64,000 nucleotides of DNA from Escherichia phage pEC-M719-6WT.1. Below are positions 46,247-63,979 of this stretch, in pieces; the first letter of the stretch is position 1; each line of letters opens with the position of its first letter. The stretch is from the sequence record OQ845957.1; one strand, given 5' to 3'. The position numbers and the translations under genes are program-made. Below the pieces are notes generated by a model. That model was not told the DNA's origin, made no database searches, and saw only the letters and a list, made by a program, of their open reading frames with translations.

Positions 46247-46498
46247 ATGGCAACTATCCGCGCAACTGTAAACACTTTTGGTTTTAACGTGTTAGATGTT
46301 AAGTTCGACATGGTAGGCACTGGTGATGCTTTTGGAATGGTTGAAATGTGCCTAAAGGCAACTATTCAGGACTATAAACCAACTGAAAACTTCTGGAAGG
46401 GAGTAAAACAGGAAGTCTTAAAAGATGGCGTGACGTCTTACTATTGGGGTGATTCTCTTATCACGCTTTACCATCAAAAATTTGGTTATAATGACTAA
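46247..46498 (+). CDS. small hypothetical protein (leader-cassette gene)
   Basis: 83 aa; last gene of array. Confidence 0.4.
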   Translation: MATIRATVNTFGFNVLDVKFDMVGTGDAFGMVEMCLKATIQDYKPTENFWKGVKQEVLKDGVTSYYWGDSLITLYHQKFGYND

Positions 46499-46540
46499 CA
46501 AGACGCCGCAACGGGGCAAATAGCCCCAGACCCTATACAA

Positions 46541-46561
46541 GCCCCTTCAATGGGGCTTTTT
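46541..46561 (+). terminator. intrinsic terminator closing the small-gene array
   Basis: GCCCC-TTCAAT-GGGGC hairpin plus TTTTT. Confidence 0.6.
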
Positions 46562-48089
46562 AACGTCTATCTAAACCCTTCCTAGAATCTTACCAGACAT
46601 TTAGAGCAATAACTCTATAGCTTACTCTATAATCCCTTATCAAATCAACTAAAATATAAGCCCATAACCCCAGAAAGGGGATGGCATTCTAATTGGTATT
46701 GTTACCAATCCCTTAAACGCTCTATAACGCTCTATAACGGCTTATCATCTCAACTTAAGCAATCATATTAACCCGCTCTTAAAAGCCCTTTATAGAGCTT
46801 CCTAGAGCCTTAAAAGAATCTTATAAGGGTGTAAGCTTTATCATCTCGTTAGTCTCTTGTGAATATCTAAACGGGGCTATGAGATAGGACTCTATAGTGG
46901 TTATAAAGTATCGTAAAAGCTAGCCCCCTTAACATTTCTTTAACAAAATCTTAACAATCCCTACATAGTTATGCTTATTAGCAACTTGTTAGCACCTTGT
47001 TAAATCCTTGTTAAGACCATGTTACAACCTTGTTAGACTCTTTGGAGTACCCTTAAAAGCCCCTGTAAAGGGCTATAAAGAGCTATACAGTCAGTTGGGC
47101 TATAGTTACTATGGAGAACCTTAGAAATAGCTGTATAGAGCTATACAGGGCTTTTAAGAGGTATGTTTAGAGAATCACTGAGAGGGATAGGGAGCGATAA
47201 GAGAAGAGATAGTGACCATGTTAATAGACTGTTAAAAAGGTTAAGAACTTATTAGCCACTTGTTAATTATCTTAACAAAATAACTTTTAAATTTAACATG
47301 TTAGCATCTTGTTAGACCCTTGTAAGAACTGTTAAGCTCTTGTTACATCCTTGTTAGTTCTGTTAAGAGACTGTTAAGAACTATCGAGACTTGTTAGAGA
47401 CTTGTTAGAGACTTGTTAGAGTTGTAAAGAAATTGTTAATGATATTTTAAAATTTTGCAAAGGGTATGTTACAAGGCTGTTAAGGGCTACCAAGCAGATA
47501 TACACCCTTTGTAGATATTTTTCAGATTCTCTACAAACCCTAAATAAACACTTGACAACTCTATTTTATAAAAATTTTATAGAACTGAATAACTATCTAT
47601 ACACTATCTTCTATAAAACAGGTAAATACAGGCTTATAAGATACCTTGTTAATACCGTGTTAGACCTTGTAGAATAAGCCTTAGAAGGGAATACCTGTTT
47701 AGTGCTATATAACAGTCTATATAGAGGGTTAGTAGAACCTAGTGAACATCCTATAGAGAGTCACATAGCTTACATAATGGGTTACTGTTAAGTAACACAG
47801 ATAACCTAGAGATTAAGATGGGTATAGGGGCTTCTAAGGGGCTATGAAGAGATGGTTAAGGTGATTGTATAGGTTTGGAAGAGGATTGCTTAGAGGGCTA
47901 TTTAGAAGGGTTATACAGAGAGCTATAGAGACTCACTGTTAAGGGACTAAGATACTATATAGTACTATATAACTATATAGAGAGTAAGGTTAAGTAGGTT
48001 GTTTAGAAGGGCTAGATATTTTATCACATATCATGGTGACCCAAGATGAACGAAGTGAATCCAAATTTTATAAAAATATTTTACTCAAT
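46562..48089. repeat. ORF-free repeat island with phased YTGTTAR motifs, GCTATACAG-type palindromes and a tandem CGCTCTATAA duplication
   Basis: No ORF of 60 aa or more on either strand; tandem 11-bp units at 46985-47040; 12-13 phased units at 47296-47432; bounded by convergent terminators. Confidence 0.75.
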
Positions 48090-48124
48090 AAAAAAGCCCC
48101 TATGAGACAGACTCTATTAGGGGC
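48090..48124 (-). terminator. intrinsic terminator for minus-strand block
   Basis: Hairpin GCCCC..GGGGC with T-run on minus strand (A-run on plus). Confidence 0.5.
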
Positions 48125-48133
48125 TGTATAGTT

Positions 48134-48817
48134 TTACATCACTTCTCGTAACATTACCTGTAGAGAAGTTTTAGTCGTCTGGAAGAAGTGTGTGAATCCA
48201 TTGTGACGTTCTCTTACCTGAAGCATTATCTGGTCACCCTTAATTGGATGTGAACTAATGTGATACTCATTCAGGTTCAAGACTGCACTTCCACCTTCAA
48301 AGATGTGGCTCAGGTACGTAGCATCAATAAACTCTTCTTTATCTGTGACCTTGATACAGATACCTCTGTTAACTCGTTTAGGATTGATATCTTCCATCAC
48401 AAGCATTTGTTGTCCACCAAGAGAAATCATAGTGAACTCTTTACGGTTCTGCTGTTTAACGTACATTTCAAGTTTCTGCAAAGTATCTTTATAGAACGGA
48501 TAAGACTCCTTAACAAAGATACCTTTAAGTTGCTCTTTACCATCTACAAACTCTCTTGAATGTCTCAGTGACATTACAATCTGTTGAAGCTGGTCTCTGC
48601 ATTCCGGTGAAAGATAGTTATCAATATCTTCCAAACTCAGTATCAAGTACTTTCTCTCTAGCTCAAATTGTTTTTCCATATCTATCAAATCCTGAAAACA
48701 TTTCTTAGTGACTTTTGACCACTCTTCAGAAGCAATCTTTTTCTTCCTCTGAAGGGGAATCATATCTTTCAAGTTCATCCAACTCTTCTTGAGAAGGTGA
48801 GCCATAGCTTTCTTCAA
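48134..48817 (-). CDS. hypothetical protein
   Basis: 227 aa ORF. Confidence 0.35.
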   Translation of the reverse strand: MKKAMAHLLKKSWMNLKDMIPLQRKKKIASEEWSKVTKKCFQDLIDMEKQFELERKYLILSLEDIDNYLSPECRDQLQQIVMSLRHSREFVDGKEQLKGIFVKESYPFYKDTLQKLEMYVKQQNRKEFTMISLGGQQMLVMEDINPKRVNRGICIKVTDKEEFIDATYLSHIFEGGSAVLNLNEYHISSHPIKGDQIMLQVRERHNGFTHFFQTTKTSLQVMLREVM

Positions 48818-49013
48818 CGTACAACTTCATAGCGTGGCACACCAAATATATCACCATAATCTCGTATCAAATCTTCTTTAGAAATGATTAAACGATACCC
48901 ACGAAGGTGAGCATAAGATTTGGCATATTGATAGATGACAACTTTTTGGTCTTCTTTCAGATTTAAACTCATTTCCGCTACCTTATAAAGAGGGGCTGTT
49001 ACACCCCTTTAAA

Positions 49014-49250
49014 TCACTCTTCAGTCTTCTTCTCATCAGACTTTTTAGTTTTCTTATCATCTTTCTTAGGCTTCTCTTCAACCTTAGCTTCTGGTTCATT
49101 TTGAGTTGCCTGAATAGCAATGTCCAGAAGTTTTGCCAAGTCTGATTTAATCACCGTAACAGGTTGCTCATTGTAGTAGCTCTTGTCAAGGTGCTCTTTC
49201 AGTTCATTAAGAGAGTTAAAGCCGAATGGCTGGATAGGTGTCTTAATCAT
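49014..49250 (-). CDS. hypothetical protein with Lys/Glu-rich tail
   Basis: 78 aa ORF. Confidence 0.3.
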   Translation of the reverse strand: MIKTPIQPFGFNSLNELKEHLDKSYYNEQPVTVIKSDLAKLLDIAIQATQNEPEAKVEEKPKKDDKKTKKSDEKKTEE

Positions 49251-57894: not shown

Positions 57895-57971
57895 CTCTGT
57901 TTAGCTCAGTTTGGTAGAGCGTTCCGTTTGGGGCGGTAAGGCCAGAGGTTCAAGTCCTCTAACAGAGACCA
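57895..57971 (+). tRNA. tRNA-Pro (anticodon TGG, tentative)
   Basis: 7-bp acceptor CTCTGTT/AACAGAG, T-arm AGAGG-TTCAAGT-CCTCT, encoded CCA. Confidence 0.55.
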
Positions 57972-57978
57972 AATTAAT

Positions 57979-58053
57979 GTCGTAGAAGGCAAATGGTTAG
58001 CCACCTGACCTTCAATCAGTTGCTCGCGGGTTCGAATCCCGTCTACGACTCCA
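57979..58053 (+). tRNA. tRNA-Glu (anticodon TTC, tentative)
   Basis: Acceptor GTCGTAG/CTACGAC, T-loop TTCGAAT, CCA end. Confidence 0.5.
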
Positions 58054-58138
58054 AATTTGACAGAAGACCAAATACAGCAAACAACTTTTACTTTTCGCGC
58101 ATAGAAAACATAAAAAGCTTGGTCTGGTCATTAAGAAT

Positions 58139-58215
58139 TGCGGGTATAGAGAAAGGGCGTCTCACATGTCTCATTAGCATGGTATCGGCAGGTTCGACTC
58201 CTGCACCCGCCTCCA
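58139..58215 (+). tRNA. tRNA with CAT anticodon (Met/Ile2/initiator unresolved); 1:72 mismatch
   Basis: Anticodon arm CATGT-CTCATTA-GCATG, T-arm GCAGG-TTCGACT-CCTGC. Confidence 0.5.
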
Positions 58216-58296
58216 AATTTACAGAAGACCGTTTACAGCAATTCAAACAATTTTATCGGAAAATTAAAATGAATACGGTCTGGTAATGTTAAACAT

Positions 58297-58373
58297 GGTT
58301 AGGAAGCACATAAGGCATGTGCGGTCGGCTGTTAACCGAATGGCACAGGGTTCGAATCCCTGACTAACCGCCA
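58297..58373 (+). tRNA. tRNA-Asn (anticodon GTT)
   Basis: Anticodon loop CTGTTAA, T-arm CAGGG-TTCGAAT-CCCTG, CCA end. Confidence 0.6.
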
Positions 58374-58383
58374 AAATTTAAAT

Positions 58384-58471
58384 GCGTCGTTATCCCGTAG
58401 ATGGAAGCGGTGGTGACTGTAAATCACTTGTCATTACGACTCGGTAGGTTCGACTCCTTCACGGCGCACCA
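58384..58471 (+). tRNA. tRNA-Tyr (anticodon GTA), class II
   Basis: 88 nt with long variable arm; anticodon loop CTGTAAA. Confidence 0.6.
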
Positions 58472-58477
58472 AACAAA

Positions 58478-58555
58478 GGTTATGTAGTTTAATTTGGTTA
58501 AAATACCTCCCTGTCACGGAGGAAGATGTGGGTTCAAGTCCCATCATAACCGCCA
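58478..58555 (+). tRNA. tRNA-Asp (anticodon GTC)
   Basis: Acceptor GGTTATG/CATAACC; anticodon arm CCTCC-CTGTCAC-GGAGG. Confidence 0.65.
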
Positions 58556-58975
58556 ATTTTGAGAGGGCTTTTTAGCCCCTCCCTTAAAGAGTTCTTACGA
58601 GTATTCTTTAAAGGAGCAGAAGACCAAATTCAGCAAGTTACTTAAAATTTCAAGCCAATTTAATTTTGAAAAATTTAAAACTTGGTCTGGTTCCAACAAA
58701 TTTACAGAAGACCGTTTACAGCAATTTAAATCTATTTCTCTCAAAAAGAAAAGGTGAAGGTTCGATTCCTTCACACGTTACGGCGTGTTGGTGTAATGGA
58801 AGCACTTTAGATAATAACGGTCTGGTAATCCTCTTTGCAGTGACTTATGGAGCTAATATATCGTCCCATGAGTGCCGATGAATTTCCTTAGCATGATTCT
58901 AGATTAGCTTAATAGGAAATGACTCTACAAGCCCTTTAGCAAGGTTTGCGTAGGTTACTGCAAAGATGATTTAAT

Positions 58976-59051
58976 GGGAGTGTAGCAGAATGGTGATGCG
59001 GCAGACTTTTAATCTGACAGGCGACGGGTTCGAATCCCTCCACTCCTACCA
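58976..59051 (+). tRNA. tRNA-Lys (anticodon TTT)
   Basis: Anticodon loop CTTTTAA; T-loop TTCGAAT; weak T-stem. Confidence 0.5.
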
Positions 59052-59055
59052 ATAT

Positions 59056-59132
59056 GGTTCAGTCGCAGATAAGGTAATGCAAGGGTTTCATAAGCCCTAT
59101 GAATGTGGGTTCGATTCCCACCTGAACCTCCA
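59056..59132 (+). tRNA. tRNA with CAT anticodon (Met or Ile2)
   Basis: Perfect acceptor GGTTCAG/CTGAACC; anticodon arm AGGGT-TTCATAA-GCCCT; T-arm GTGGG-TTCGATT-CCCAC. Confidence 0.65.
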
Positions 59133-59134
59133 AT

Positions 59135-59209
59135 TGTGGGTTAGCATAAATGGTAATGCAAACGGCTGATAACCGTTAGAAGAGGGTTCGATACCCTCAC
59201 CTACAACCA
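59135..59209 (+). tRNA. tRNA-Ile (anticodon GAT)
   Basis: Anticodon arm AACGG-CTGATAA-CCGTT; T-arm GAGGG-TTCGATA-CCCTC. Confidence 0.65.
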
Positions 59210-59224
59210 ATTTCAATAAAGTTG

Positions 59225-59253
59225 TTGACATTGAGATGTGACTACTTTATAGT
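59225..59253 (+). promoter_or_regulatory. sigma70 consensus-like promoter (TTGACA-N17-TATAGT) inside tRNA cluster
   Basis: Near-consensus hexamers with exact 17-bp spacer. Confidence 0.6.
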
Positions 59254-59486
59254 TACCTTAGTTTTCGTTAGCGTAGCGTCTATTTTGCAAACTTAAAAAT
59301 AAATGCAAACGATAATGTTTTTCTGGCAGTAGCTTAATAGGCTAAACACCAGTGAGGTCTTCCAATCCCTCATCAAAGAATTTGGCGTACTAGCCCACGG
59401 TATGATTAATAAAGTGGGCAACATTCTAAAGGGTATCCCTTATGGGGCTTGGCTTAAATGCAATGAGTACCCTTTAAAATGTTAAT
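59254..59486 (+). ncRNA. candidate structured ncRNA downstream of internal promoter
   Basis: ~230 nt with no ORF and no canonical tRNA fold; nested stems GCCCAC..GTGGGC and AAGGGTA..TACCCTT. Confidence 0.3.
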
Positions 59487-59563
59487 GCACCCTTAGTTCA
59501 ACTGGACAGAGCAAATGACTTCTAATCATTGAGTTACAGGTTCGAATCCTGTAGGGTGTTCCA
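59487..59563 (+). tRNA. tRNA-Arg (anticodon TCT)
   Basis: Anticodon arm AATGA-CTTCTAA-TCATT; T-arm ACAGG-TTCGAAT-CCTGT. Confidence 0.65.
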
Positions 59564-59623
59564 ATTTAATGGTCAAGACAACACTAGTAAGTCATCTTCG
59601 ATACATGTTAAGAGATGAACGAA

Positions 59624-59691
59624 AGTCGGAAAGTTGCTGAAGGTTAGCTACCTTCGATAGTAAGTAGGTTCGACTCCTACCTTGGCTGCCA
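59624..59691 (+). tRNA. aberrant tRNA-like element (~68 nt; D-arm not resolvable)
   Basis: Good T-arm GTAGG-TTCGACT-CCTAC and CCA end, stem GAAGG-TTAGCTA-CCTTC, but no standard D-arm or full acceptor pairing. Confidence 0.3.
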
Positions 59692-59833
59692 AATAGTTAG
59701 CAGATTGCTTAGACGACCTTAACGGGTCTCCGTGTAAGGAGGTGGTCTGTATCTCATGTTTCCAGAGCATGTAAAATATTCTGAGAAGGGGCTTTACAGT
59801 GTTGTGATAATACGGTAAGCTTCGAATTATAGT

Positions 59834-59916
59834 ATGGGACGATGTTAAGACACTAAGGCATGTGCGTAAGCCTCCAAAACTTACTCAAAGGGGTTCGAAT
59901 CCTCCGTCCCATGCCA
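59834..59916 (+). tRNA. atypical tRNA-like element (possible anticodon CCA/Trp; ~8-nt insertion between acceptor and D-stem)
   Basis: Perfect acceptor ATGGGAC/GTCCCAT, T-loop TTCGAAT, CCA end; body 83 nt without a class II variable arm. Confidence 0.35.
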
Positions 59917-59929
59917 AAGTCTTATTAGG

Positions 59930-60017
59930 GGTAGGTAGCGGCTAATGGAAGCCAAACTGTCTTGAAAACAGTTGCCACTGTAGAGATACGGTGAGGGTTC
60001 GACTCCTTTACTTACCG
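59930..60017 (+). tRNA. tRNA-Ser (anticodon TGA), class II
   Basis: Anticodon arm ACTGT-CTTGAAA-ACAGT; long variable arm; CCA not encoded. Confidence 0.6.
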
Positions 60018-60019
60018 CC

Positions 60020-60272
60020 TAATAAGATTTGAAATCCACGCTACTGTTATTACGTGCGTTCGGTTTCCTCTAACGTGTATTGGCGTACACGGCACTGATG
60101 GAGCACCTAGTAGGTGTCACGGAGAAGAGATAGTATCAAGCTCTCCAAAGGTTCTAGTCACCGGATTAAACAAGACTATGCAAAGACTGATTAGGTCTTT
60201 TTAGAGAACTTCTGAGGCAAACTATACCATTGTTGCTTTGGGGTCTTGGAAGTTCTCTACAAAGATTTTAAT
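60020..60272 (+). ncRNA. candidate structured ncRNA / spacer within tRNA cluster
   Basis: ~250 nt without ORF or tRNA fold between two tRNAs; multiple local stems. Confidence 0.25.
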
Positions 60273-60350
60273 GGGAGATTGACGGTAATTGGTAAACCTA
60301 CCATCCTTAGAAGTTGGTGTTTGAGGGTTCGAATCCCTTGTCTCCTACCA
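60273..60350 (+). tRNA. tRNA, class I length, anticodon TAG (Leu anticodon; isotype uncertain)
   Basis: Acceptor GGGAGAT/GTCTCCT, anticodon arm CCATC-CTTAGAA-GTTGG, discriminator A. Confidence 0.45.
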
Positions 60351-60357
60351 AATTAAT

Positions 60358-60433
60358 GCAGGTGTAGCAAAATGGTTATGCGGCTGACTCTTAATCAGTA
60401 AGACGATGGGTTCAATTCCCTCCACCTGTACCA
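60358..60433 (+). tRNA. tRNA-Lys (anticodon CTT, tentative)
   Basis: Anticodon arm GCTGA-CTCTTAA-TCAGT; T-loop TTCAATT. Confidence 0.5.
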
Positions 60434-60439
60434 AACATT

Positions 60440-60515
60440 GGGGATGTAGTTTACATGGTTAAAACGTAAGTTTTGCAAACTTAAGTACAGGGTTCAATTC
60501 CCTGCTTCTCCACCA
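60440..60515 (+). tRNA. tRNA-Ala (anticodon TGC)
   Basis: Anticodon arm TAAGT-TTTGCAA-ACTTA; T-arm CAGGG-TTCAATT-CCCTG. Confidence 0.6.
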
Positions 60516-60521
60516 ATTAGT

Positions 60522-60596
60522 GCATCCATAGTTTAAACGGGAAAATTACAGTCTTCCAAACTGAGGTTGAGGGTTCGATTCCCTCTGGATGCTCCA
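60522..60596 (+). tRNA. tRNA-Gly (anticodon TCC)
   Basis: Perfect acceptor GCATCCA/TGGATGC; anticodon loop CTTCCAA. Confidence 0.6.
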
Positions 60597-60610
60597 AATT
60601 AAGGTGTGAT

Positions 60611-61024
60611 ATGAAAATATGTAGTACTTGCAGAATACCAAAAGATGAAAGCTTATTCCATAAGAATAAGAACAAGAAAGATGGTCTTCAAAGTCAATGC
60701 AAAGACTGTGCAAGACTTCGTGATGCAAAGAGTTATCAAGCAAATGATAGAAGGAAAGAGTCTATTAAAAGCACTCGTAACTTCAAGAGAGAGTATAACA
60801 AGGCTCTAGCTAGAAGGTACAAAGCTTTATGTAAATGTCATATATGTGGTGAGAAAGAGCCAGTTGCACTGGATTTACACCATACAGACCCTTCCAAGAA
60901 AGATTTGAATCCTGCATCGCTTTATTCATACTCCACAAAAAGATTAAAAGATGAAATCAGAAAGTGTATTGTCTTGTGCGCTAACTGTCACAGAAAAGTA
61001 CATGCTGGTATTATTAAAGTTTAA
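60611..61024 (+). CDS. HNH endonuclease (zinc-finger type), inserted between tRNA genes
   Basis: HNH core LDLHHTDPSKK...CANCHRKVHAG plus CxxC pairs. Confidence 0.6.
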   Translation: MKICSTCRIPKDESLFHKNKNKKDGLQSQCKDCARLRDAKSYQANDRRKESIKSTRNFKREYNKALARRYKALCKCHICGEKEPVALDLHHTDPSKKDLNPASLYSYSTKRLKDEIRKCIVLCANCHRKVHAGIIKV

Positions 61025-61025
61025 T

Positions 61026-61102
61026 GCTGCTTTCGTATAATTGGCTATTACACATCCCTTGTAAGGATGGAGATGCGGGTTCAAGTCCTGTGAGCAGCAC
61101 CA
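61026..61102 (+). tRNA. tRNA-Thr (anticodon TGT)
   Basis: Anticodon arm CATCC-CTTGTAA-GGATG; acceptor GCTGCTT/GAGCAGC. Confidence 0.6.
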
Positions 61103-61198
61103 ATTTTGAGGTCAAGTGAAAGACCGCTTGAGTCAACTGAAGACCGTAACAAATTCCACGGAGTTGAGTTAGCGGCACAACTTCAGACCTCTTTCAAA

Positions 61199-61273
61199 GC
61201 TCGCTTAGTTTATATGGTAAAGCCCCATCCTTACAAGTTGGTGAAGAAGGTTCAAGTCCTTCAGCGAGTACCA
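61199..61273 (+). tRNA. tRNA-Val (anticodon TAC)
   Basis: Anticodon arm CCATC-CTTACAA-GTTGG (same stem as 60273 element); T-arm GAAGG-TTCAAGT-CCTTC. Confidence 0.55.
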
Positions 61274-61274
61274 A

Positions 61275-61352
61275 GTTCCAGTATCCCAATTGGCAGAGGA
61301 TGCAAGCTCAAACCTTGTATTAGTGACGGTTCGAATCCGTCTTGGAACACCA
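61275..61352 (+). tRNA. tRNA, class I length, anticodon CAA (Leu anticodon; isotype uncertain)
   Basis: Anticodon arm GCAAG-CTCAAAC-CTTGT; T-arm GACGG-TTCGAAT-CCGTC; discriminator A. Confidence 0.45.
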
Positions 61353-61369
61353 AATTTTAGGAGATTCCT

Positions 61370-61582
61370 ATGAAGCCTTATGGTAGACACGGTAAAGTTG
61401 AAATTGCAAGTTGTGGTTGCTGTGCTTCTCACGATGGTGAAGAAGATTACTACAAGTGGCGTACAGACCATCGTAGACGCTTTCTCAGAAGAGATAAGAA
61501 GAAAGCTAGACAGGAATCTCGAAAAGATATTGCAGAATTAGTTCAAATGGATAGAGCAGCAACCTACGAAGTTGTCTGTTAG
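61370..61582 (+). CDS. small Cys-rich basic protein (doubtful; 3' end overlaps tRNA-Arg)
   Basis: 70 aa with GGAGA RBS but ~50-nt overlap with a well-formed tRNA. Confidence 0.2.
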   Translation: MKPYGRHGKVEIASCGCCASHDGEEDYYKWRTDHRRRFLRRDKKKARQESRKDIAELVQMDRAATYEVVC

Positions 61583-61608
61583 GGGTTCGAATCCCTTATT
61601 CTGCACCA
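61532..61608 (+). tRNA. tRNA-Arg (anticodon ACG)
   Basis: Perfect acceptor GCAGAAT/ATTCTGC; anticodon arm GCAAC-CTACGAA-GTTGT. Confidence 0.65.
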
Positions 61609-61628
61609 ATTTTAAAGAGGCTATTTAA

Positions 61629-62186
61629 ATGAGATATTTGAAGTATGCTTCATGGATTTTCCTAGCTTTGCTAGAGCCATTTGCAGCAATCTTAGCAGTT
61701 ATCTTAGCACCTTTCGTAGTTCCATTCTACAATGAGAAGAAAGGTCACTTACCTTTTGGATTCAGATGGATGGAGACTTATGATAATCCAATTGACGGTG
61801 ACAAAGGCCACGTTGAACGATGGGCTAAGATTCGAAAGATTGGCAAGCTCGGTGTTTATATGCAGAGAGTTGGATGGCTCTGGAGAAACAAAGCTTATAA
61901 CTTCTCTTACCATGTATTAGGGAGAGATGTAAAAGATGTTACTAAGTGGAAAGGTAATATCAACGTAAGTTCTAACCCTGAAGATAATCAGACAGGTTAT
62001 CTCCTGATGTGGAACAGTAATGCTTGGGGATTATTCGCTTTTATACCGTCAATTAAAATCTTTGGTAAACAGTTTTACTGGAGAATTTATGTTGGATGGA
62101 AGCTTAAAAGTGTTGTCCCAGAAGAAAGAGCATTCTCAAGGGAAAGAATTATGTTGGCATTCTTTATTCATCCACTAAGAAAGTAA
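61629..62186 (+). CDS. membrane protein
   Basis: 185 aa; N-terminal hydrophobic segment IFLALLEPFAAILAVILAPFVVPF; AAAGAGG RBS. Confidence 0.35.
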   Translation: MRYLKYASWIFLALLEPFAAILAVILAPFVVPFYNEKKGHLPFGFRWMETYDNPIDGDKGHVERWAKIRKIGKLGVYMQRVGWLWRNKAYNFSYHVLGRDVKDVTKWKGNINVSSNPEDNQTGYLLMWNSNAWGLFAFIPSIKIFGKQFYWRIYVGWKLKSVVPEERAFSRERIMLAFFIHPLRK

Positions 62187-62194
62187 AGATTTAA

Positions 62195-62270
62195 AGGGGA
62201 TTAGTTTACAAGGTTAAAACCTCGGTCTTTGAAATCGAAGAAGTTGGTTCAATTCCAACATCCCCCGCCA
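62195..62270 (+). tRNA. tRNA-Gln (anticodon TTG)
   Basis: Anticodon arm TCGGT-CTTTGAA-ATCGA; perfect T-arm GTTGG-TTCAATT-CCAAC; 1:72 mismatch. Confidence 0.6.
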
Positions 62271-62272
62271 AT

Positions 62273-62351
62273 GCTCCATTACTCCAATTGGCAGAGAGGC
62301 CAGACTTAAAATCTGTGTTATGTATCGGTTCGAATCCGATATGGAGTACCA
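62273..62351 (+). tRNA. tRNA, class I length, anticodon TAA (Leu anticodon; isotype uncertain)
   Basis: Anticodon loop CTTAAAA; T-arm ATCGG-TTCGAAT-CCGAT; discriminator A. Confidence 0.45.
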
Positions 62352-62357
62352 AATATT

Positions 62358-62433
62358 AGCAGTGTAGCATAACTGGCAATGCTCCAGCCTCTGAAGCTGA
62401 AAGATTAAGGTTCAAATCCTTACACTGCTGCCA
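62358..62433 (+). tRNA. tRNA-Gln (anticodon CTG, tentative)
   Basis: Perfect acceptor AGCAGTG/CACTGCT; anticodon loop CTCTGAA. Confidence 0.5.
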
Positions 62434-62464
62434 CTTCTAAGGGTTCTTACGAGAGTCCTTAAAT

Positions 62465-62541
62465 GTGGCCTTATCATAAATGTATAATGACCCATGCTGT
62501 GAACATGGTCTATACGGGTTCGATTCCCGTAGGTCACCCCA
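62465..62541 (+). tRNA. tRNA-His (anticodon GTG)
   Basis: Anticodon arm CCATG-CTGTGAA-CATGG perfect; T-arm ACGGG-TTCGATT-CCCGT. Confidence 0.65.
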
Positions 62542-62548
62542 ATTTTAA

Positions 62549-62623
62549 TAGCTCAATTAGCTTATATGGTTAAAGCGCGTGTCTGAAAAACATGAGAACA
62601 GGGTTCAAATCCCGATGGGCTAC
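62549..62623 (+). tRNA. tRNA-Phe (anticodon GAA)
   Basis: Acceptor TAGCTCA/TGGGCTA; anticodon loop CTGAAAA; weak T-stem. Confidence 0.5.
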
Positions 62624-62650
62624 CAATTATATAGGTGCATAATGAAAGAG

Positions 62651-63376
62651 ATGACAGGACAAGGTAAAGAGATTTTCAGTCTCCTTAAATCCGGTAACGG
62701 GTTCTCTAACCCTCTTATTACTGGTGCAGCAGTTCTTGGTGGTACAGTTGCTGCTTCTCAGTTATTAATCACTTCAATTAGCTCTGTATCAGACCCAGCT
62801 ACCCAGCAAATCCTTATTGCTGCTGGCTTGACAACTGCCTTACTAAGCAGCTTTACAACAAGCCTTGGTAGCACCACTTCAACGACAACTACTTTAACTG
62901 ACTATGGACAGAAGTCTGTAGATGAGTTTTCACAGCGTATGCAAGTAGCTAAAGGTTACTCTAACGTTATGGGAGCAGCAGGTGAACAAGTTGGCTGTAC
63001 ACCGTTTAGTGGAATCATGGGAGTTGCTACTGAATACGGTAACAAGGCTATGGATTTGATTAACACCTCCATAGATGCCGTAAACAGCGTTCTAAGCGAC
63101 TTACAGGATGCAATTGATAAAGGACTAGCAACTATCTCTGACCTCGCTACACAAGCTGTTACAGCGATTAATGAAGGTATGGCAAAGATTACTGCCTACG
63201 CTAATGAAGTGGCTCAGATGATTGCAGATGAAGCAGCAATGATTGCAGAGTATCTAAAAACCAATATTAATGGTTTCCTTGCAAATGTTTTACCAGATTG
63301 GTTTAACGATGATTGTAAGACGGGTGTAATTGATACAATTGCAACTCCAGAGATGAAAGAAGCTCTAAACAAATAA
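62651..63376 (+). CDS. hypothetical membrane-associated protein
   Basis: Track ORF 62579-63376 trimmed to internal ATG past tRNA-Phe; hydrophobic segments LITGAAVLGGTVAASQLLITSI and ILIAAGLTTALLSSF. Confidence 0.35.
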   Translation: MTGQGKEIFSLLKSGNGFSNPLITGAAVLGGTVAASQLLITSISSVSDPATQQILIAAGLTTALLSSFTTSLGSTTSTTTTLTDYGQKSVDEFSQRMQVAKGYSNVMGAAGEQVGCTPFSGIMGVATEYGNKAMDLINTSIDAVNSVLSDLQDAIDKGLATISDLATQAVTAINEGMAKITAYANEVAQMIADEAAMIAEYLKTNINGFLANVLPDWFNDDCKTGVIDTIATPEMKEALNK

Positions 63377-63379
63377 TTT

Positions 63380-63472
63380 GGAAGATTAACCCTAAAAGGT
63401 AAGGGAGCAGTTTGCTAAACTGCCAGTAGCTGAGAAATCGGTGTACCAGTTCAAGTCTGGTATCTTCCTCCA
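63380..63472 (+). tRNA. tRNA-Ser (anticodon GCT), class II
   Basis: 93 nt; perfect acceptor GGAAGAT/ATCTTCC; anticodon arm GCAGT-TTGCTAA-ACTGC; long variable arm. Confidence 0.65.
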
Positions 63473-63478
63473 AATTTT

Positions 63479-63554
63479 GCATTGGTGTCAGAAATGGATA
63501 TGTACCTGTCTGCAAAATAGGTTTATGAGGGTTCGAGTCCCTTCCAATGCTCCA
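63479..63554 (+). tRNA. tRNA-Cys (anticodon GCA)
   Basis: Perfect acceptor GCATTGG/CCAATGC; anticodon loop CTGCAAA; T-loop TTCGAGT. Confidence 0.6.
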
Positions 63555-63778: not shown

Positions 63779-63979
63779 ATGAACGAGACTAACATTTATA
63801 AAGATTTTTACGAAGCACAGCAGCAAGTTAATCTGCTGAAAAATACTATCATGTCTATTGCTGAACGTCTAATTACGGCTACTGGTATTAAACCAGGAGA
63901 AGCAACAATGGACAGTCTTCTTGATGCTGTAGATGCCAAGTTTGGTGTATGTAAAGAAGAAGAAGCTAAACCTGAATAA
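63779..63979 (+). CDS. hypothetical small protein
   Basis: 66 aa ORF with GGAGAAA RBS. Confidence 0.3.
   Translation: MNETNIYKDFYEAQQQVNLLKNTIMSIAERLITATGIKPGEATMDSLLDAVDAKFGVCKEEEAKPE

What the first reader, a model, noticed from the sequence alone, without database searches (positions are those of the whole stretch)
46562..48089. 1.5-kb ORF-free island with 10-11-bp-phased YTGTTAR repeats, bounded by convergent terminators
In a genome otherwise coding at high density, this stretch has no ORF of 60 aa or more on either strand. It contains five tandem 11-bp units CCTTGTTANNN (46985-47040) and 12-13 consecutive units of CTTGTTAGNNN / CTGTTAAGNN spaced one helical turn apart (47296-47432), with more copies at 47460-47480 and 47640-47700. 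It also holds palindromes of the GCTATACAG/CTGTATAG type (47060-47140, ~47920-47960) and a tandem CGCTCTATAA duplication (46718-46741). Helically phased short repeats are typical of protein-binding arrays such as replication-origin iterons, partition/centromere-like sites, packaging sites or nucleoprotein-filament loading sites.
Basis: seen in the sequence. Interest (0 to 1): 0.8.

Follow-up and report, generated by a model that had tools for sequence, protein, structure and literature searches.

The report
Phage genome-end repeat region with phased motifs
The gene-free stretch is where this Felix O1-like phage's DNA is cut into unit genomes: a ~570-bp terminal repeat packed with a short motif spaced one helical turn apart, probably a docking platform for the still-unidentified protein that recognises the genome ends.

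Summary
Window 46499-48133 has no ORF of 60 aa or more and lies between two convergent terminators. It holds 21 same-strand TGTTA copies in 569 bp, where 1 is expected. Spacing is exactly 11 bp in one array and averages 10.4 bp in the other.

The window is a Felix O1-like (Ounavirinae) phage. The island is homologous to the region where relatives have their physical genome ends. Two relatives' records carry exact 579- and 581-bp terminal repeats. A third carries an annotated 618-bp DTR. All map to window 46921-46929 and 47489-47493. A 608-bp DTR was mapped experimentally in UAB_Phi87. The predicted DTR here is about 46923-47491, and both TGTTA arrays lie inside it, against its two boundaries.

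The flanks carry a second motif, CTCTATA, in mirror orientation. The whole island is conserved at least as well as neighbouring genes in 21 relatives, and repeat number and phase are kept.

Best reading: this is the concatemer junction, with phased protein-binding arrays that serve end recognition and cutting. The closest analogue is the T7 terminal-repeat arrays. A replication-origin role is not excluded. No RNA family, conserved ORF or DnaA box was found.

The DTR is already known in this family. The repeat architecture appears undescribed, and interest is moderate.

The parts
46513..46563 (+). Two GC-rich hairpins. The second (46539-46558) is followed by a T5 run (46559-46563). This is the terminator of the + strand (right-arm) gene cluster that ends at 46498.
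   Evidence: Fold of 46499-46570: -27.8 kcal/mol, z -4.8. A terminator is annotated at the homologous place in phage Michonne.
46564..46922 (+). Left flank: the unique non-coding DNA that would precede the right-end DTR copy in the virion. It holds CTCTATA on the + strand five times (46613, 46625, 46720, 46730, 46890) and the tandem AACGCTCTAT duplication at 46716-46739. The + strand is C-rich.
   Evidence: Mean conservation is 0.73 and most columns are 0.9 or higher. All 21 relatives have 3-5 CTCTATA and 0-1 of its complement here.
46921..46934 (+). Left bracket TAGCCCCCTTAACA. The predicted left boundary of the DTR, and so the left genome end, starts at G46923.
   Evidence: The CRP22 and D4 records both begin GCCCCCTTAACA. 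Boundaries of three relatives map to 46921-46929. The query start coincides with base 1 of the CRP22 record.
46923..47491 (+). Predicted direct terminal repeat (DTR) of 569 bp. It is present once here because the sequence is in the junction (collapsed) form.
   Evidence: Homology to exact 579-bp (CRP22) and 581-bp (D4) terminal repeats and to the annotated 618-bp DTR of UAB_69. A 608-bp DTR was mapped with Bal31 and run-off sequencing in UAB_Phi87 (PMC4837284).
46929..46957 (-). Three TTAACA copies (TGTTAA on the - strand) at 11-bp spacing, directly at the left DTR boundary.
   Evidence: The same element is annotated as repeat_region in phages mio and dune.
46985..47039 (+). Left array: five CTTGTTA/CATGTTA units at exactly 11 bp.
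   Evidence: The period is 11.0 in all 22 genomes.
47048..47163 (.). Centre of the DTR: an imperfect palindrome (33-nt arms, 50-nt spacer) built from 10-bp units CTRTAnAGRG. It includes the conserved pair CTTAAAAGCCC / GGGCTTTTAAG.
   Evidence: I3, I5, D4, D5. The fold is -41.8 kcal/mol, z -2.5. Pairing is only partly kept in relatives.
47217..47265 (+). Three further TGTTA copies (47219, 47230, 47261) leading into the main array.
47297..47440 (+). Main array: 11 exact TGTTA units plus 2 degenerate TGTAA units (47321 and 47423). Local spacing is 11 bp with two 9-bp steps, which gives a mean period of 10.4 bp. It includes three perfect GAGACTTGTTA units at 47386-47421.
   Evidence: The best period is 10.2-10.5 in all 22 genomes. 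Length differences between relatives are mostly 11 bp or multiples.
47441..47462 (.). AT-rich element GATATTTTAAAATTTTGCAAAG, 30-50 bp inside the right boundary.
   Evidence: Nearly invariant in relatives. It lies inside the only stretch of the island that BLAST still aligns with the distant Pectobacterium phage Wc4-1 (86.5% over about 50 bp, window 47413-47462).
47465..47491 (+). The last two TGTTA copies (47467, 47478) and the right bracket TGTTAAGGGCTA(CC). The predicted right boundary of the DTR, and so the right genome end, is C47491.
   Evidence: The CRP22 and D4 records both end TGTTAAGGGCTACC. The sequence is invariant in 21 relatives, but the IMG/VR loci among them were fetched by an exact 21-mer that covers 47484-47504.
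47492..48089 (+). Right flank: the unique non-coding DNA that would follow the left-end DTR copy. It has an AT-rich trough at 47520-47640 (GC 0.21-0.24). It also has TGTTA at 47647 and 47658. TATAGAG (CTCTATA on the - strand) occurs four times (47720, 47752, 47924, 47976). CTATATAG-type repeats lie at 47953-47981. The + strand is G-rich.
   Evidence: Mean conservation is 0.745. All 21 relatives have 0 CTCTATA and 2-4 TATAGAG here.
48090..48125 (-). Terminator of the - strand (left-arm) gene cluster that ends at 48134.
   Evidence: -16.3 kcal/mol, z -3.5, followed by U6. A terminator is annotated at the homologous place in Michonne.

Best explanation
The island is the genome terminus of a Felix O1-like phage, seen in its junction form.

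In replicating concatemers the right arm of one genome meets the left arm of the next here. The two share one copy of a ~569-bp direct terminal repeat (46923-47491). That repeat is flanked by about 360 and 600 bp of conserved non-coding DNA, then by the terminators of the two outward-transcribed terminal gene clusters.

Shown by homology: relatives' virion DNA starts at the sequence GCCCCCTTAACA and ends at TGTTAAGGGCTACC. Both sequences are present here.

Inferred:
1. The packaging enzyme cuts the top strand at 46922/46923 and the bottom strand at 47491/47492. The repeat is then duplicated by strand-displacement synthesis, as proposed for T7, so that each packaged genome carries it at both ends.
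2. The 26 TGTTA/TAACA copies inside the repeat sit one helical turn apart, so they lie on one face of the DNA. They are cooperative binding sites for an oligomeric DNA-recognition protein of the packaging machinery. That protein marks the junction and positions the two cuts. The outermost copy at each boundary, together with GGGCTA, forms a short inverted 'bracket' (TAGCCC..TTAACA / TGTTAAGGGCTA). This would present the same site to the nuclease on opposite strands.
3. The mirrored CTCTATA motifs in the flanks belong to the same recognition complex.

The binding protein is not identified. No small terminase is recognisable in this family. The 66-aa gene just upstream of the large terminase gene is a candidate by position only.
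For: 1. Family: the island matches 256-265 Ounavirinae phage records.

2. Termini:
- UAB_69 annotates a 618-bp DTR inside the homologous island.
- D4 has an exact 581-bp repeat at both record ends, and CRP22 an exact 579-bp one. GE_vB_7A has 581-583 bp at 99.5% identity.
- All map to window 46921-46929 and 47489-47493.
- The query 46923-47491 aligns end to end with CRP22 bases 1-579. In that search, 258 records yielded 290 matched places, so some records carry a second copy.
- The DTR of the relative UAB_Phi87 (608 bp) was mapped with Bal31 and run-off sequencing (PMC4837284). D4 was reported to have direct terminal repeats by PhageTerm (PMC11737134).

3. Uniqueness: in the complete D4 genome, TGTTA(+) clusters only at the two DTR copies (21 per 600 bp; the next highest counts are 8 and 5). 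CTCTATA(+) clusters only just before the right DTR copy, and CTCTATA(-) only just after the left copy.

4. Selection:
- The island is at least as conserved as the flanking genes.
- TGTTA cores score 0.91 against 0.745 for the rest of the DTR.
- Copy number (18-23), orientation and period (11.0; 10.2-10.5) are kept in 21 relatives.
- DTR length changes are mostly 11 bp or multiples.

5. A distant subfamily member (Wc4-1) also has an ORF-free island rich in TGTTAAC/TAACA.

6. A T7-type replisome is encoded in the window: PolA and a gp4-like primase-helicase. This fits a T7-like strategy for handling genome ends.

7. T7 itself has arrays of a short motif next to and inside its terminal repeat.
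Against: - No reads from this phage were available, so its own ends are inferred by homology only. The window holds a single copy of the repeat.
- No binding protein is identified. No small terminase is annotated in the family. The 66-aa gene upstream of the terminase gene has no known domain.
- The inverted bracket is only 12-14 bp. A longer alignment of the two boundaries is not better than shuffles (score 34 against 25 +/- 4.3, maximum 43).
- The mapped cut positions sit 6 and 8 nt from the TTAACA core, so they are not perfectly symmetric.
- 1.6 kb of tight conservation is more than the end-processing signals of a phage are expected to need (my assessment, not measured). Other functions probably share the island.
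- The function of the analogous T7 arrays was, to my knowledge, never settled, so the analogy does not prove the mechanism.
Confidence: 0.6

Rival explanations
1. Replication origin. The TGTTA arrays would be iterons for a phage initiator, and the neighbouring AT-rich stretch would be the unwinding element. This could coexist with the terminal-repeat role.
For: - Direct repeats lie next to an AT-rich trough (GC 0.21-0.24 at 47520-47640).
- From my own knowledge, T7 has secondary origins at its ends; the T7 record lists the promoter phiOL at 405, beside its repeat array.
- The strong conservation of the whole 1.6 kb suggests more than one function.
Against: - The unit is 11 bp with a 5-7 bp core, whereas typical iterons are 17-22 bp (established knowledge).
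- There is no DnaA box in the island at one mismatch or fewer.
- The neighbouring genes have no recognisable initiator domain.
- The replisome is T7-type, and in T7 that kind of replisome does not use an iteron-binding initiator (plus established knowledge).
- An origin has no reason to coincide exactly with both mapped DTR boundaries.
Confidence: 0.15
2. Platform for a host protein. The 11-bp head-to-tail TGTTAA repeats would be bound by a host OmpR/PhoB-family regulator such as PhoP, whose box is (T/G)GTTTA-N5-(T/G)GTTTA. Binding might serve regulator titration, DNA entry, end protection or compaction.
For: - The PhoP box is a hexamer direct repeat with 11-bp period, bound head to tail. Footprinted boxes include the half-sites TGTTAA and GGTTAA (PMC3335776).
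- A matrix built from 19 footprinted boxes gives the second-best hit of the 64-kb window at 46939 on the - strand (15.5 bits). It gives two more DTR hits at the median of real boxes. Six of the 55 hits above the lower quartile lie in the DTR, which is 0.9% of the sequence.
- The recorded hosts of nearly all matching phages are enterobacteria, which to my knowledge carry PhoP.
Against: - Most array units (CTTGTTAG) do not score well with the PhoP matrix.
- The matrix is weak and the AT-rich genome gives 55 hits.
- The resemblance is one base short of the consensus in every unit.
- No experiment links PhoP to these phages.
- An 11-bp head-to-tail spacing is common to many DNA-binding proteins.
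Confidence: 0.07
3. The island encodes non-coding RNA(s), or small proteins, rather than DNA-level signals.
For: - The conservation is high for DNA with no ORF.
- Weak sigma-70-like sites in both flanks face the DTR (46560-46588 on +, 47993-47964 on -).
- Several records annotate small ORFs in the island.
Against: - No Rfam match at E of 1 or less.
- Consensus folds of 120-nt windows across 22 genomes are weak (-1.5 to -11 kcal/mol among the 12 top-ranked windows) and show no covariation signal.
- No ORF is conserved across the 22 genomes, and four of them have none of 35 aa or more.
- The number of promoter-like sites is at chance level (9 against 6.5 +/- 2.6).
Confidence: 0.04
4. Partition or centromere-like site, resembling the two sets of five 11-bp repeats of plasmid R1 parC (recalled from memory).
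For: Five units at exactly 11 bp (46985-47039), plus further 11-bp arrays.
Against: - These are lytic phages; the D4 announcement reports a predicted lytic lifestyle and no temperate markers.
- No parA, parM or parR-like domain was found in the neighbouring genes or in the D4 annotation.
- The arrays coincide with the terminal repeat.
Confidence: 0.03

Closest known systems
Direct terminal repeat of Felix O1-like phages (UAB_Phi87 608 bp, UAB_69 618 bp, vB_EcoM_D4 581 bp, CRP22 579 bp)
   Same: The DNA is homologous (74-87% identity) and the boundary sequences are identical: GCCCCCTTAACA... and ...TGTTAAGGGCTACC. The setting is the same, between two outward-transcribed terminal gene clusters (PMC4837284).
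   Different: The predicted length here is 569 bp. The difference comes from gain or loss of 11-bp units. The papers I read report only the existence and size of the repeat, not its internal architecture. The ends of this particular phage have not been mapped.
Short-repeat arrays at the ends of phage T7 DNA (called SRL and SRR by Dunn and Studier 1983; name recalled from memory)
   Same: A short motif occurs many times in one orientation at regular spacing, in non-coding DNA at the terminal repeat of a phage with a T7-type replisome. In T7, CCTAAAG/TAAAG occurs at 13-bp steps from 175 to 334, and three more times within the first 66 bp of the 160-bp repeat.
   Different: - The motif differs (CTTGTTA against CCTAAAG) and there is no sequence homology.
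- Spacing is 10.4-11 bp (helical) against 13 bp.
- The arrays lie mostly inside the repeat here and mostly just outside it in T7.
- The phage is a myovirus with no phage RNA polymerase. In T7, the RNA polymerase takes part in starting packaging (PMC3276506).
Terminase recognition sites built from repeated short elements (P1 pac hexamers, lambda cosB R sites, SPP1 pacL/pacR boxes); from established knowledge, not tested here
   Same: Several copies of a short element lie on either side of the cut site and are bound by the recognition subunit of the packaging enzyme.
   Different: - Those sites hold 3-7 copies, against about 26 here.
- Those phages use headful or cos packaging, not exact direct terminal repeats.
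- No small terminase subunit is recognisable in this family.
Head-to-tail tandem sites with 10-11-bp period, such as the PhoP box or the 11-bp repeats of R1 parC
   Same: Direct repeats of a 6-7-bp core with 11-bp period, so that successive protomers sit on one face of the helix (PMC3335776). The half-site TGTTAA occurs in real PhoP boxes.
   Different: Those sites have 2-10 units at promoters or plasmid centromeres. Here about 20 units sit inside a phage terminal repeat. The match to the PhoP matrix is partial.

Membership tests
Ounavirinae (Felix O1-like) direct terminal repeat / concatemer junction | Homology to the stretch that forms the terminal repeat in relatives, with the same boundary sequences | tested here: met
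   Boundaries of UAB_69, D4 and GE_vB_7A map to 46921-46929 and 47489-47493. CRP22 bases 1-579 match window 46923-47491. Boundary sequences are identical and invariant in 21 relatives.
Ounavirinae (Felix O1-like) direct terminal repeat / concatemer junction | The sequence is present at both physical ends of this phage's own virion DNA | not testable with these tools
   Only a single-copy (junction-form) sequence is available, with no reads. This needs PhageTerm-type read-start analysis, Bal31 mapping or run-off sequencing.
Ounavirinae (Felix O1-like) direct terminal repeat / concatemer junction | Experimental proof of fixed ends and a short exact repeat in the family | tested here: met
   The literature reports Bal31 plus run-off sequencing in UAB_Phi87 (608 bp; PMC4837284) and direct terminal repeats by PhageTerm for D4 (PMC11737134).
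Ounavirinae (Felix O1-like) direct terminal repeat / concatemer junction | Large terminase of the Felix O1 short-DTR clade | not tested
   By synteny with D4, the terminase gene lies just beyond the window end. Only the 66-aa gene upstream of it is inside the window (63779-63979).
T7-type terminal short-repeat arrays | Many same-strand copies of a short motif at regular spacing at the terminal repeat | tested here: met
   There are 21 TGTTA(+) copies in 569 bp. The T7 pattern was verified on its sequence.
T7-type terminal short-repeat arrays | Sequence relatedness to the T7 motif and the same placement (just outside the repeat) | tested here: not met
   The motif, the spacing (10.4-11 bp against 13 bp) and the placement (inside against mostly outside) all differ. 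This is an analogue, not a homologue.
Iteron-type replication origin | Repeats of 17-22 bp, an adjacent initiator gene, DnaA boxes and an AT-rich unwinding element | tested here: inconclusive
   The unit is 11 bp. There is no DnaA box in the island. No initiator domain was found in the neighbouring genes. An AT-rich trough does lie at 47520-47640. Origin activity itself is not testable here.
Partition centromere (parC/parS type) | Adjacent partition operon (ParA/ParM plus a centromere-binding protein) | tested here: not met
   No such domain was found in the neighbouring genes, and none is named in the D4 whole-genome annotation.
Structured non-coding RNA | A match to a known RNA family, or a conserved secondary structure with covariation | tested here: not met
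   No Rfam match at E of 1 or less. RNAalifold consensus energies across 22 genomes are weak.

The most novel reading that the evidence does not exclude
Felix O1-like phages lack a recognisable small terminase. They might instead define their ends with a new kind of recognition system. In this reading, a helically phased filament of an unknown small protein assembles on the roughly 26 TGTTA sites of the terminal repeat and on the mirrored CTCTATA flanks. The filament would act as a ruler that sets the two cuts about 570 bp apart, and it might double as the replication start. A variant of this reading has the platform recruit a host OmpR/PhoB-type regulator such as PhoP.
Probability: 0.15. Interest if true: 0.6.

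Novelty: new member of a known kind. Interest (0 to 1): 0.4.

Why it matters
Felix O1-like phages are widely used for Salmonella and E. coli typing and biocontrol, yet how they recognise and duplicate their genome ends is unknown, and no small terminase has been identified in them.

This analysis places the ends of this phage to within a few bases. It shows that the ~570-bp terminal repeat and its flanks form a 1.6-kb block of highly conserved, motif-dense DNA that is unique in the genome.

That provides concrete cis-elements for three uses:
- finding the missing recognition protein;
- building packaging or transduction vectors;
- correcting assemblies and annotations. Many database records open the genome arbitrarily, collapse the repeat, or annotate spurious small ORFs in the island.

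It also adds a second example, independent in sequence, of the still unexplained T7-type terminal repeat arrays. Here the phasing is exactly helical.

Tried and rejected
- Rfam scan of 46300-48300 at E of 1 or less: nothing.
- RNAalifold in 120-nt windows on both strands over 22 genomes: only weak folds, with z-scores inflated by near-zero nulls.
- Conserved small ORFs: none.
- Sigma-70 promoter scan: at chance level. The TTGACA at 47551 has no usable -10 element.
- DnaA boxes: none in the island.
- Extended inverted repeat between the two DTR boundaries: not significant beyond the 12-14-bp bracket.
- Central palindrome as a conserved hairpin: many pairs are broken in relatives and at most one or two are compensatory.
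- Small terminase: none annotated in D4. The 66-aa protein upstream of the large terminase gene has only an unknown-function PHROG, no Pfam match and just 7 homologues. I did not model its structure because the result would not be informative.
- PhoP-box matrix: partial match only.
- The ends of the KMM2 record are a 64-bp assembly overlap, not a DTR.
- The 'repeat_region' features of mio and dune are only automatic tandem-repeat calls.
- One literature search (RNA-seq of Felixounavirus) was badly framed and returned nothing relevant.
- GC skew cannot locate an origin here, because it follows gene orientation.
Full report
**Observation**

The stretch between the + strand gene ending at 46498 and the - strand gene ending at 48134 contains no ORF longer than 41 aa. 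Two terminators bound it.
- On the + strand, a hairpin plus a T5 run lies at 46539-46563.
- On the - strand, a hairpin plus a T6 run lies at 48090-48125.
- Terminators are annotated at the same places in phage Michonne.

Tandem Repeats Finder reports the 11-bp unit at 46985-47035, three perfect GAGACTTGTTA units at 47386-47421, and the 10-bp duplication at 46716-46739.

TGTTA occurs 21 times on the + strand in 46925-47500, where 0.99 is expected. No other 600-bp stretch of the window holds more than 4. An unbiased k-mer count gives CTTGTTA 11 times against 0.07 expected.

Spacing is exactly 11 bp in the five-unit array. In the main array (47290-47440) the local step is 11 bp with two 9-bp steps, so the best-fitting period is 10.4 bp with coherence 10.2 of 11. 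None of 5000 random placements reached the observed power.

**What the window is**

The island matches 256-265 phage records, all Felix O1-like (Ounavirinae: Felixounavirus, Mooglevirus, Suspvirus), at about 74-87% identity. The window also carries 24 tRNA genes. It encodes a family-A DNA polymerase, a T7 gp4-type primase-helicase, a ligase, ribonucleotide reductases and an rIIA-like protein.

**The key finding: the island is the genome terminus**

- The record of Salmonella phage UAB_69 annotates a 618-bp 'DTR' inside the homologous island.
- The same laboratory mapped a 608-bp direct terminal repeat in the sister phage UAB_Phi87 by Bal31 digestion and run-off sequencing (PMC4837284).
- Escherichia phage vB_EcoM_D4 was reported to have direct terminal repeats by PhageTerm (PMC11737134). 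Its record carries an exact 581-bp repeat at both ends.
- CRP22 carries an exact 579-bp repeat. GE_vB_7A carries 581-583 bp at 99.5% identity.
- In a four-way alignment these boundaries fall at window 46921-46929 and 47489-47493.
- A BLAST of 46923-47491 aligns end to end with bases 1-579 of CRP22. That search found 290 matched places in 258 records, so some records carry a second copy.
- D4 and CRP22 both begin GCCCCCTTAACA and end TGTTAAGGGCTACC. Both sequences are present here and are invariant in 21 relatives. The right-boundary invariance is partly by construction, because the IMG/VR loci were fetched with an exact 21-mer at 47484-47504.

I therefore predict a DTR of 569 bp at 46923-47491. 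It appears once because the sequence is in junction (collapsed) form. This step is homology-based; no reads from this phage were available.

**Anatomy relative to the repeat**

- At the left boundary sit three TTAACA copies (TGTTAA on the other strand) at 11-bp steps (46929-46957). The five-unit array follows (46985-47039).
- The centre of the repeat is an imperfect palindrome of 10-bp units CTRTAnAGRG (47048-47163). Its pairing is only partly kept in relatives.
- From 47217 to 47482 there are 16 further TGTTA copies, which run up to the right boundary.
- The outermost copy on each side, together with GGGCTA, forms a short inverted bracket: TAGCCCCCTTAACA at 46921-46934 and TGTTAAGGGCTA at 47478-47489. 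Beyond these 12-14 bp the two boundaries are not significantly alike.
- A second motif marks the flanks. CTCTATA occurs five times on the + strand in the left flank. Its complement TATAGAG occurs four times in the right flank. The whole 64-kb window has only 6 and 8 copies.
- The flanks also have mirror-image GC skew, C-rich on the left and G-rich on the right.
- An AT-rich trough (GC 0.21-0.24) lies at 47520-47640.

**Conservation**

- Across 21 relatives the island is conserved at least as well as the neighbouring genes. The mean per-column identity to the window is 0.73-0.78, and most columns are at 0.9 or above. The adjoining coding sequences score 0.10 and 0.63. Sliding-window identity against three genomes gives the same picture.
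- TGTTA cores are more conserved than the rest of the repeat (0.91 against 0.745).
- Every relative keeps 18-23 TGTTA(+) copies, the 3-5/0-1 and 0/2-4 orientation pattern of CTCTATA in the flanks, a period of 11.0 for the left array and a period of 10.2-10.5 for the main array.
- Length differences inside the repeat are mostly 11 bp or multiples.
- In the complete D4 genome, TGTTA clusters occur only at the two repeat copies, and CTCTATA clusters only next to them, facing the ends.
- The distant Pectobacterium phage Wc4-1 also has an ORF-free island rich in TGTTAAC/TAACA. The only stretch BLAST still aligns covers window 47413-47462, which includes the AT-rich element GATATTTTAAAATTTTGCA 30-50 bp inside the right boundary.

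**What it is not**

- No Rfam family matches.
- Consensus RNA folds are weak.
- No ORF is conserved.
- Promoter-like sites are at chance level.
- There is no DnaA box in the island.
- The neighbouring genes have no recognisable initiator or partition domain.

**Mechanism**

Shown: this is the place where relatives' DNA is cut, and the motif arrays are unique to it and under selection.

Inferred:
- Concatemers carry one repeat per junction.
- The packaging nuclease nicks the top strand at 46922/46923 and the bottom strand at 47491/47492.
- Strand-displacement synthesis duplicates the repeat, as proposed for T7.
- The one-face TGTTA arrays, with the flanking CTCTATA motifs, bind an oligomeric recognition protein that marks the junction and positions both cuts.

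I put about 0.9 on the terminal-repeat identity and about 0.5-0.6 on the packaging role of the arrays. The combined confidence is 0.6.

The protein is unknown. No small terminase is annotated in D4. The 66-aa gene directly upstream of the large terminase gene (window 63779-63979) has no known domain.

**Rivals**

- An origin role is not excluded, because direct repeats sit beside an AT-rich stretch and (from my own knowledge) T7 has secondary origins at its ends. It has no positive support and does not explain the coincidence with both boundaries.
- A host-factor platform is a weak lead. The PhoP box is a hexamer direct repeat with the same 11-bp period, and footprinted boxes include TGTTAA half-sites (PMC3335776). 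Three DTR sites score like real boxes, but most units do not.
- RNA, small-protein and partition readings are poorly supported.

**Comparison with known systems**

The repeat itself belongs to the known Felix O1-type DTR. Membership holds by homology and boundary identity; the physical ends of this phage are untested.

The arrays work like the short-repeat arrays at the T7 ends. I checked these on the T7 sequence: CCTAAAG/TAAAG occurs at 13-bp steps from 175 to 334 and three times inside the 160-bp repeat. The motif, spacing and placement all differ, so this is an analogue and not a homologue. Terminase sites built from repeated elements (P1 pac, lambda cosB, SPP1 pac) and 11-bp head-to-tail sites (PhoP box, R1 parC) are functional parallels that I recalled from knowledge and did not test.

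**Novelty and score**

The DTR of this family is already published. The papers I could search report only its existence and size. I found no description of the phased arrays, the bracket, the mirrored flanks or the extreme conservation, though my literature access is partial.

I rate it a new member of a known kind, with interest 0.4. It would not astonish a specialist. It does make the open question of end recognition in these small-terminase-less phages directly testable.

Noticed in passing
window 63779-63979 (+): A 66-aa ORF lies directly upstream of where the large terminase gene should start, which is the usual position of a small terminase. It matches only the unknown-function family phrog_4397 and has no Pfam match. 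It is 100% identical to a protein of Escherichia phage pEC-M719-6WT.1, so the window probably comes from that phage or a near-identical one.
   Followed up: partly
window 46247-46498 (+) and 48500-49100: The genes next to the island are poorly conserved or replaced in relatives, while the island itself is conserved. Per-column identity is 0.10 for the last 65 bp of the + strand gene. Sliding identity falls to 0-0.25 around 48500-49000. The variable cargo genes therefore sit right next to the termini.
   Followed up: partly
window 57895-63554 (+): A cluster of 24 tRNA genes lies between the left-arm genes and the structural module.
   Followed up: no
GenBank GU169904 (Staphylococcus phage SA1, 135350-137017) and OK283618 (Listeria phage LPML1, 47315-47462): Records labelled as Gram-positive phages contain DNA homologous to this island. 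SA1 matches at 78% over 88% of the query. This suggests chimeric or contaminated assemblies, or mislabelled records.
   Followed up: no
homologous island in relatives: L001 5070-5270; L004 3941-4236; L002 4535-4828; L008 1033-1170: Several database records annotate small 'hypothetical proteins' inside the island, some of them spanning the DTR boundary. None is conserved across 22 genomes, so they are probably spurious calls.
   Followed up: yes
OP902295 (Citrobacter phage BSwM KMM2) record ends; MN270892 and OR687644 marked circular: Many records of this family open the genome arbitrarily or collapse the repeat. The ends of KMM2 share only a 64-bp overlap close to the true right boundary, which looks like an assembly artefact and not a DTR.
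   Followed up: partly
window 46560-46588 (+) and 47993-47964 (-): Weak sigma-70-like sites (9 of 12 matches) lie in conserved parts of both flanks and face the terminal repeat, that is, outward toward the physical ends. This recalls the leftward A0 promoter near the T7 left end. The overall number of such sites is at chance level.
   Followed up: no
window 46520-46800 and 47640-48040: The GC skew of the two flanks is strong and mirror-imaged (-0.2 to -0.56 on the left, +0.3 to +0.75 on the right). In each flank it is opposite in sign to the skew of the adjacent genes. I have no explanation for this.
   Followed up: no
window 46776-46795, 47051-47064 and 47146-47160: A third short motif recurs: CTTAAAAGCCC and its complement GGGCTTTTAAG. 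It occurs once in the left flank and as an inverted pair in the centre of the repeat (20 nt, 95% complementary between 46776-46795 and 47141-47160).
   Followed up: no
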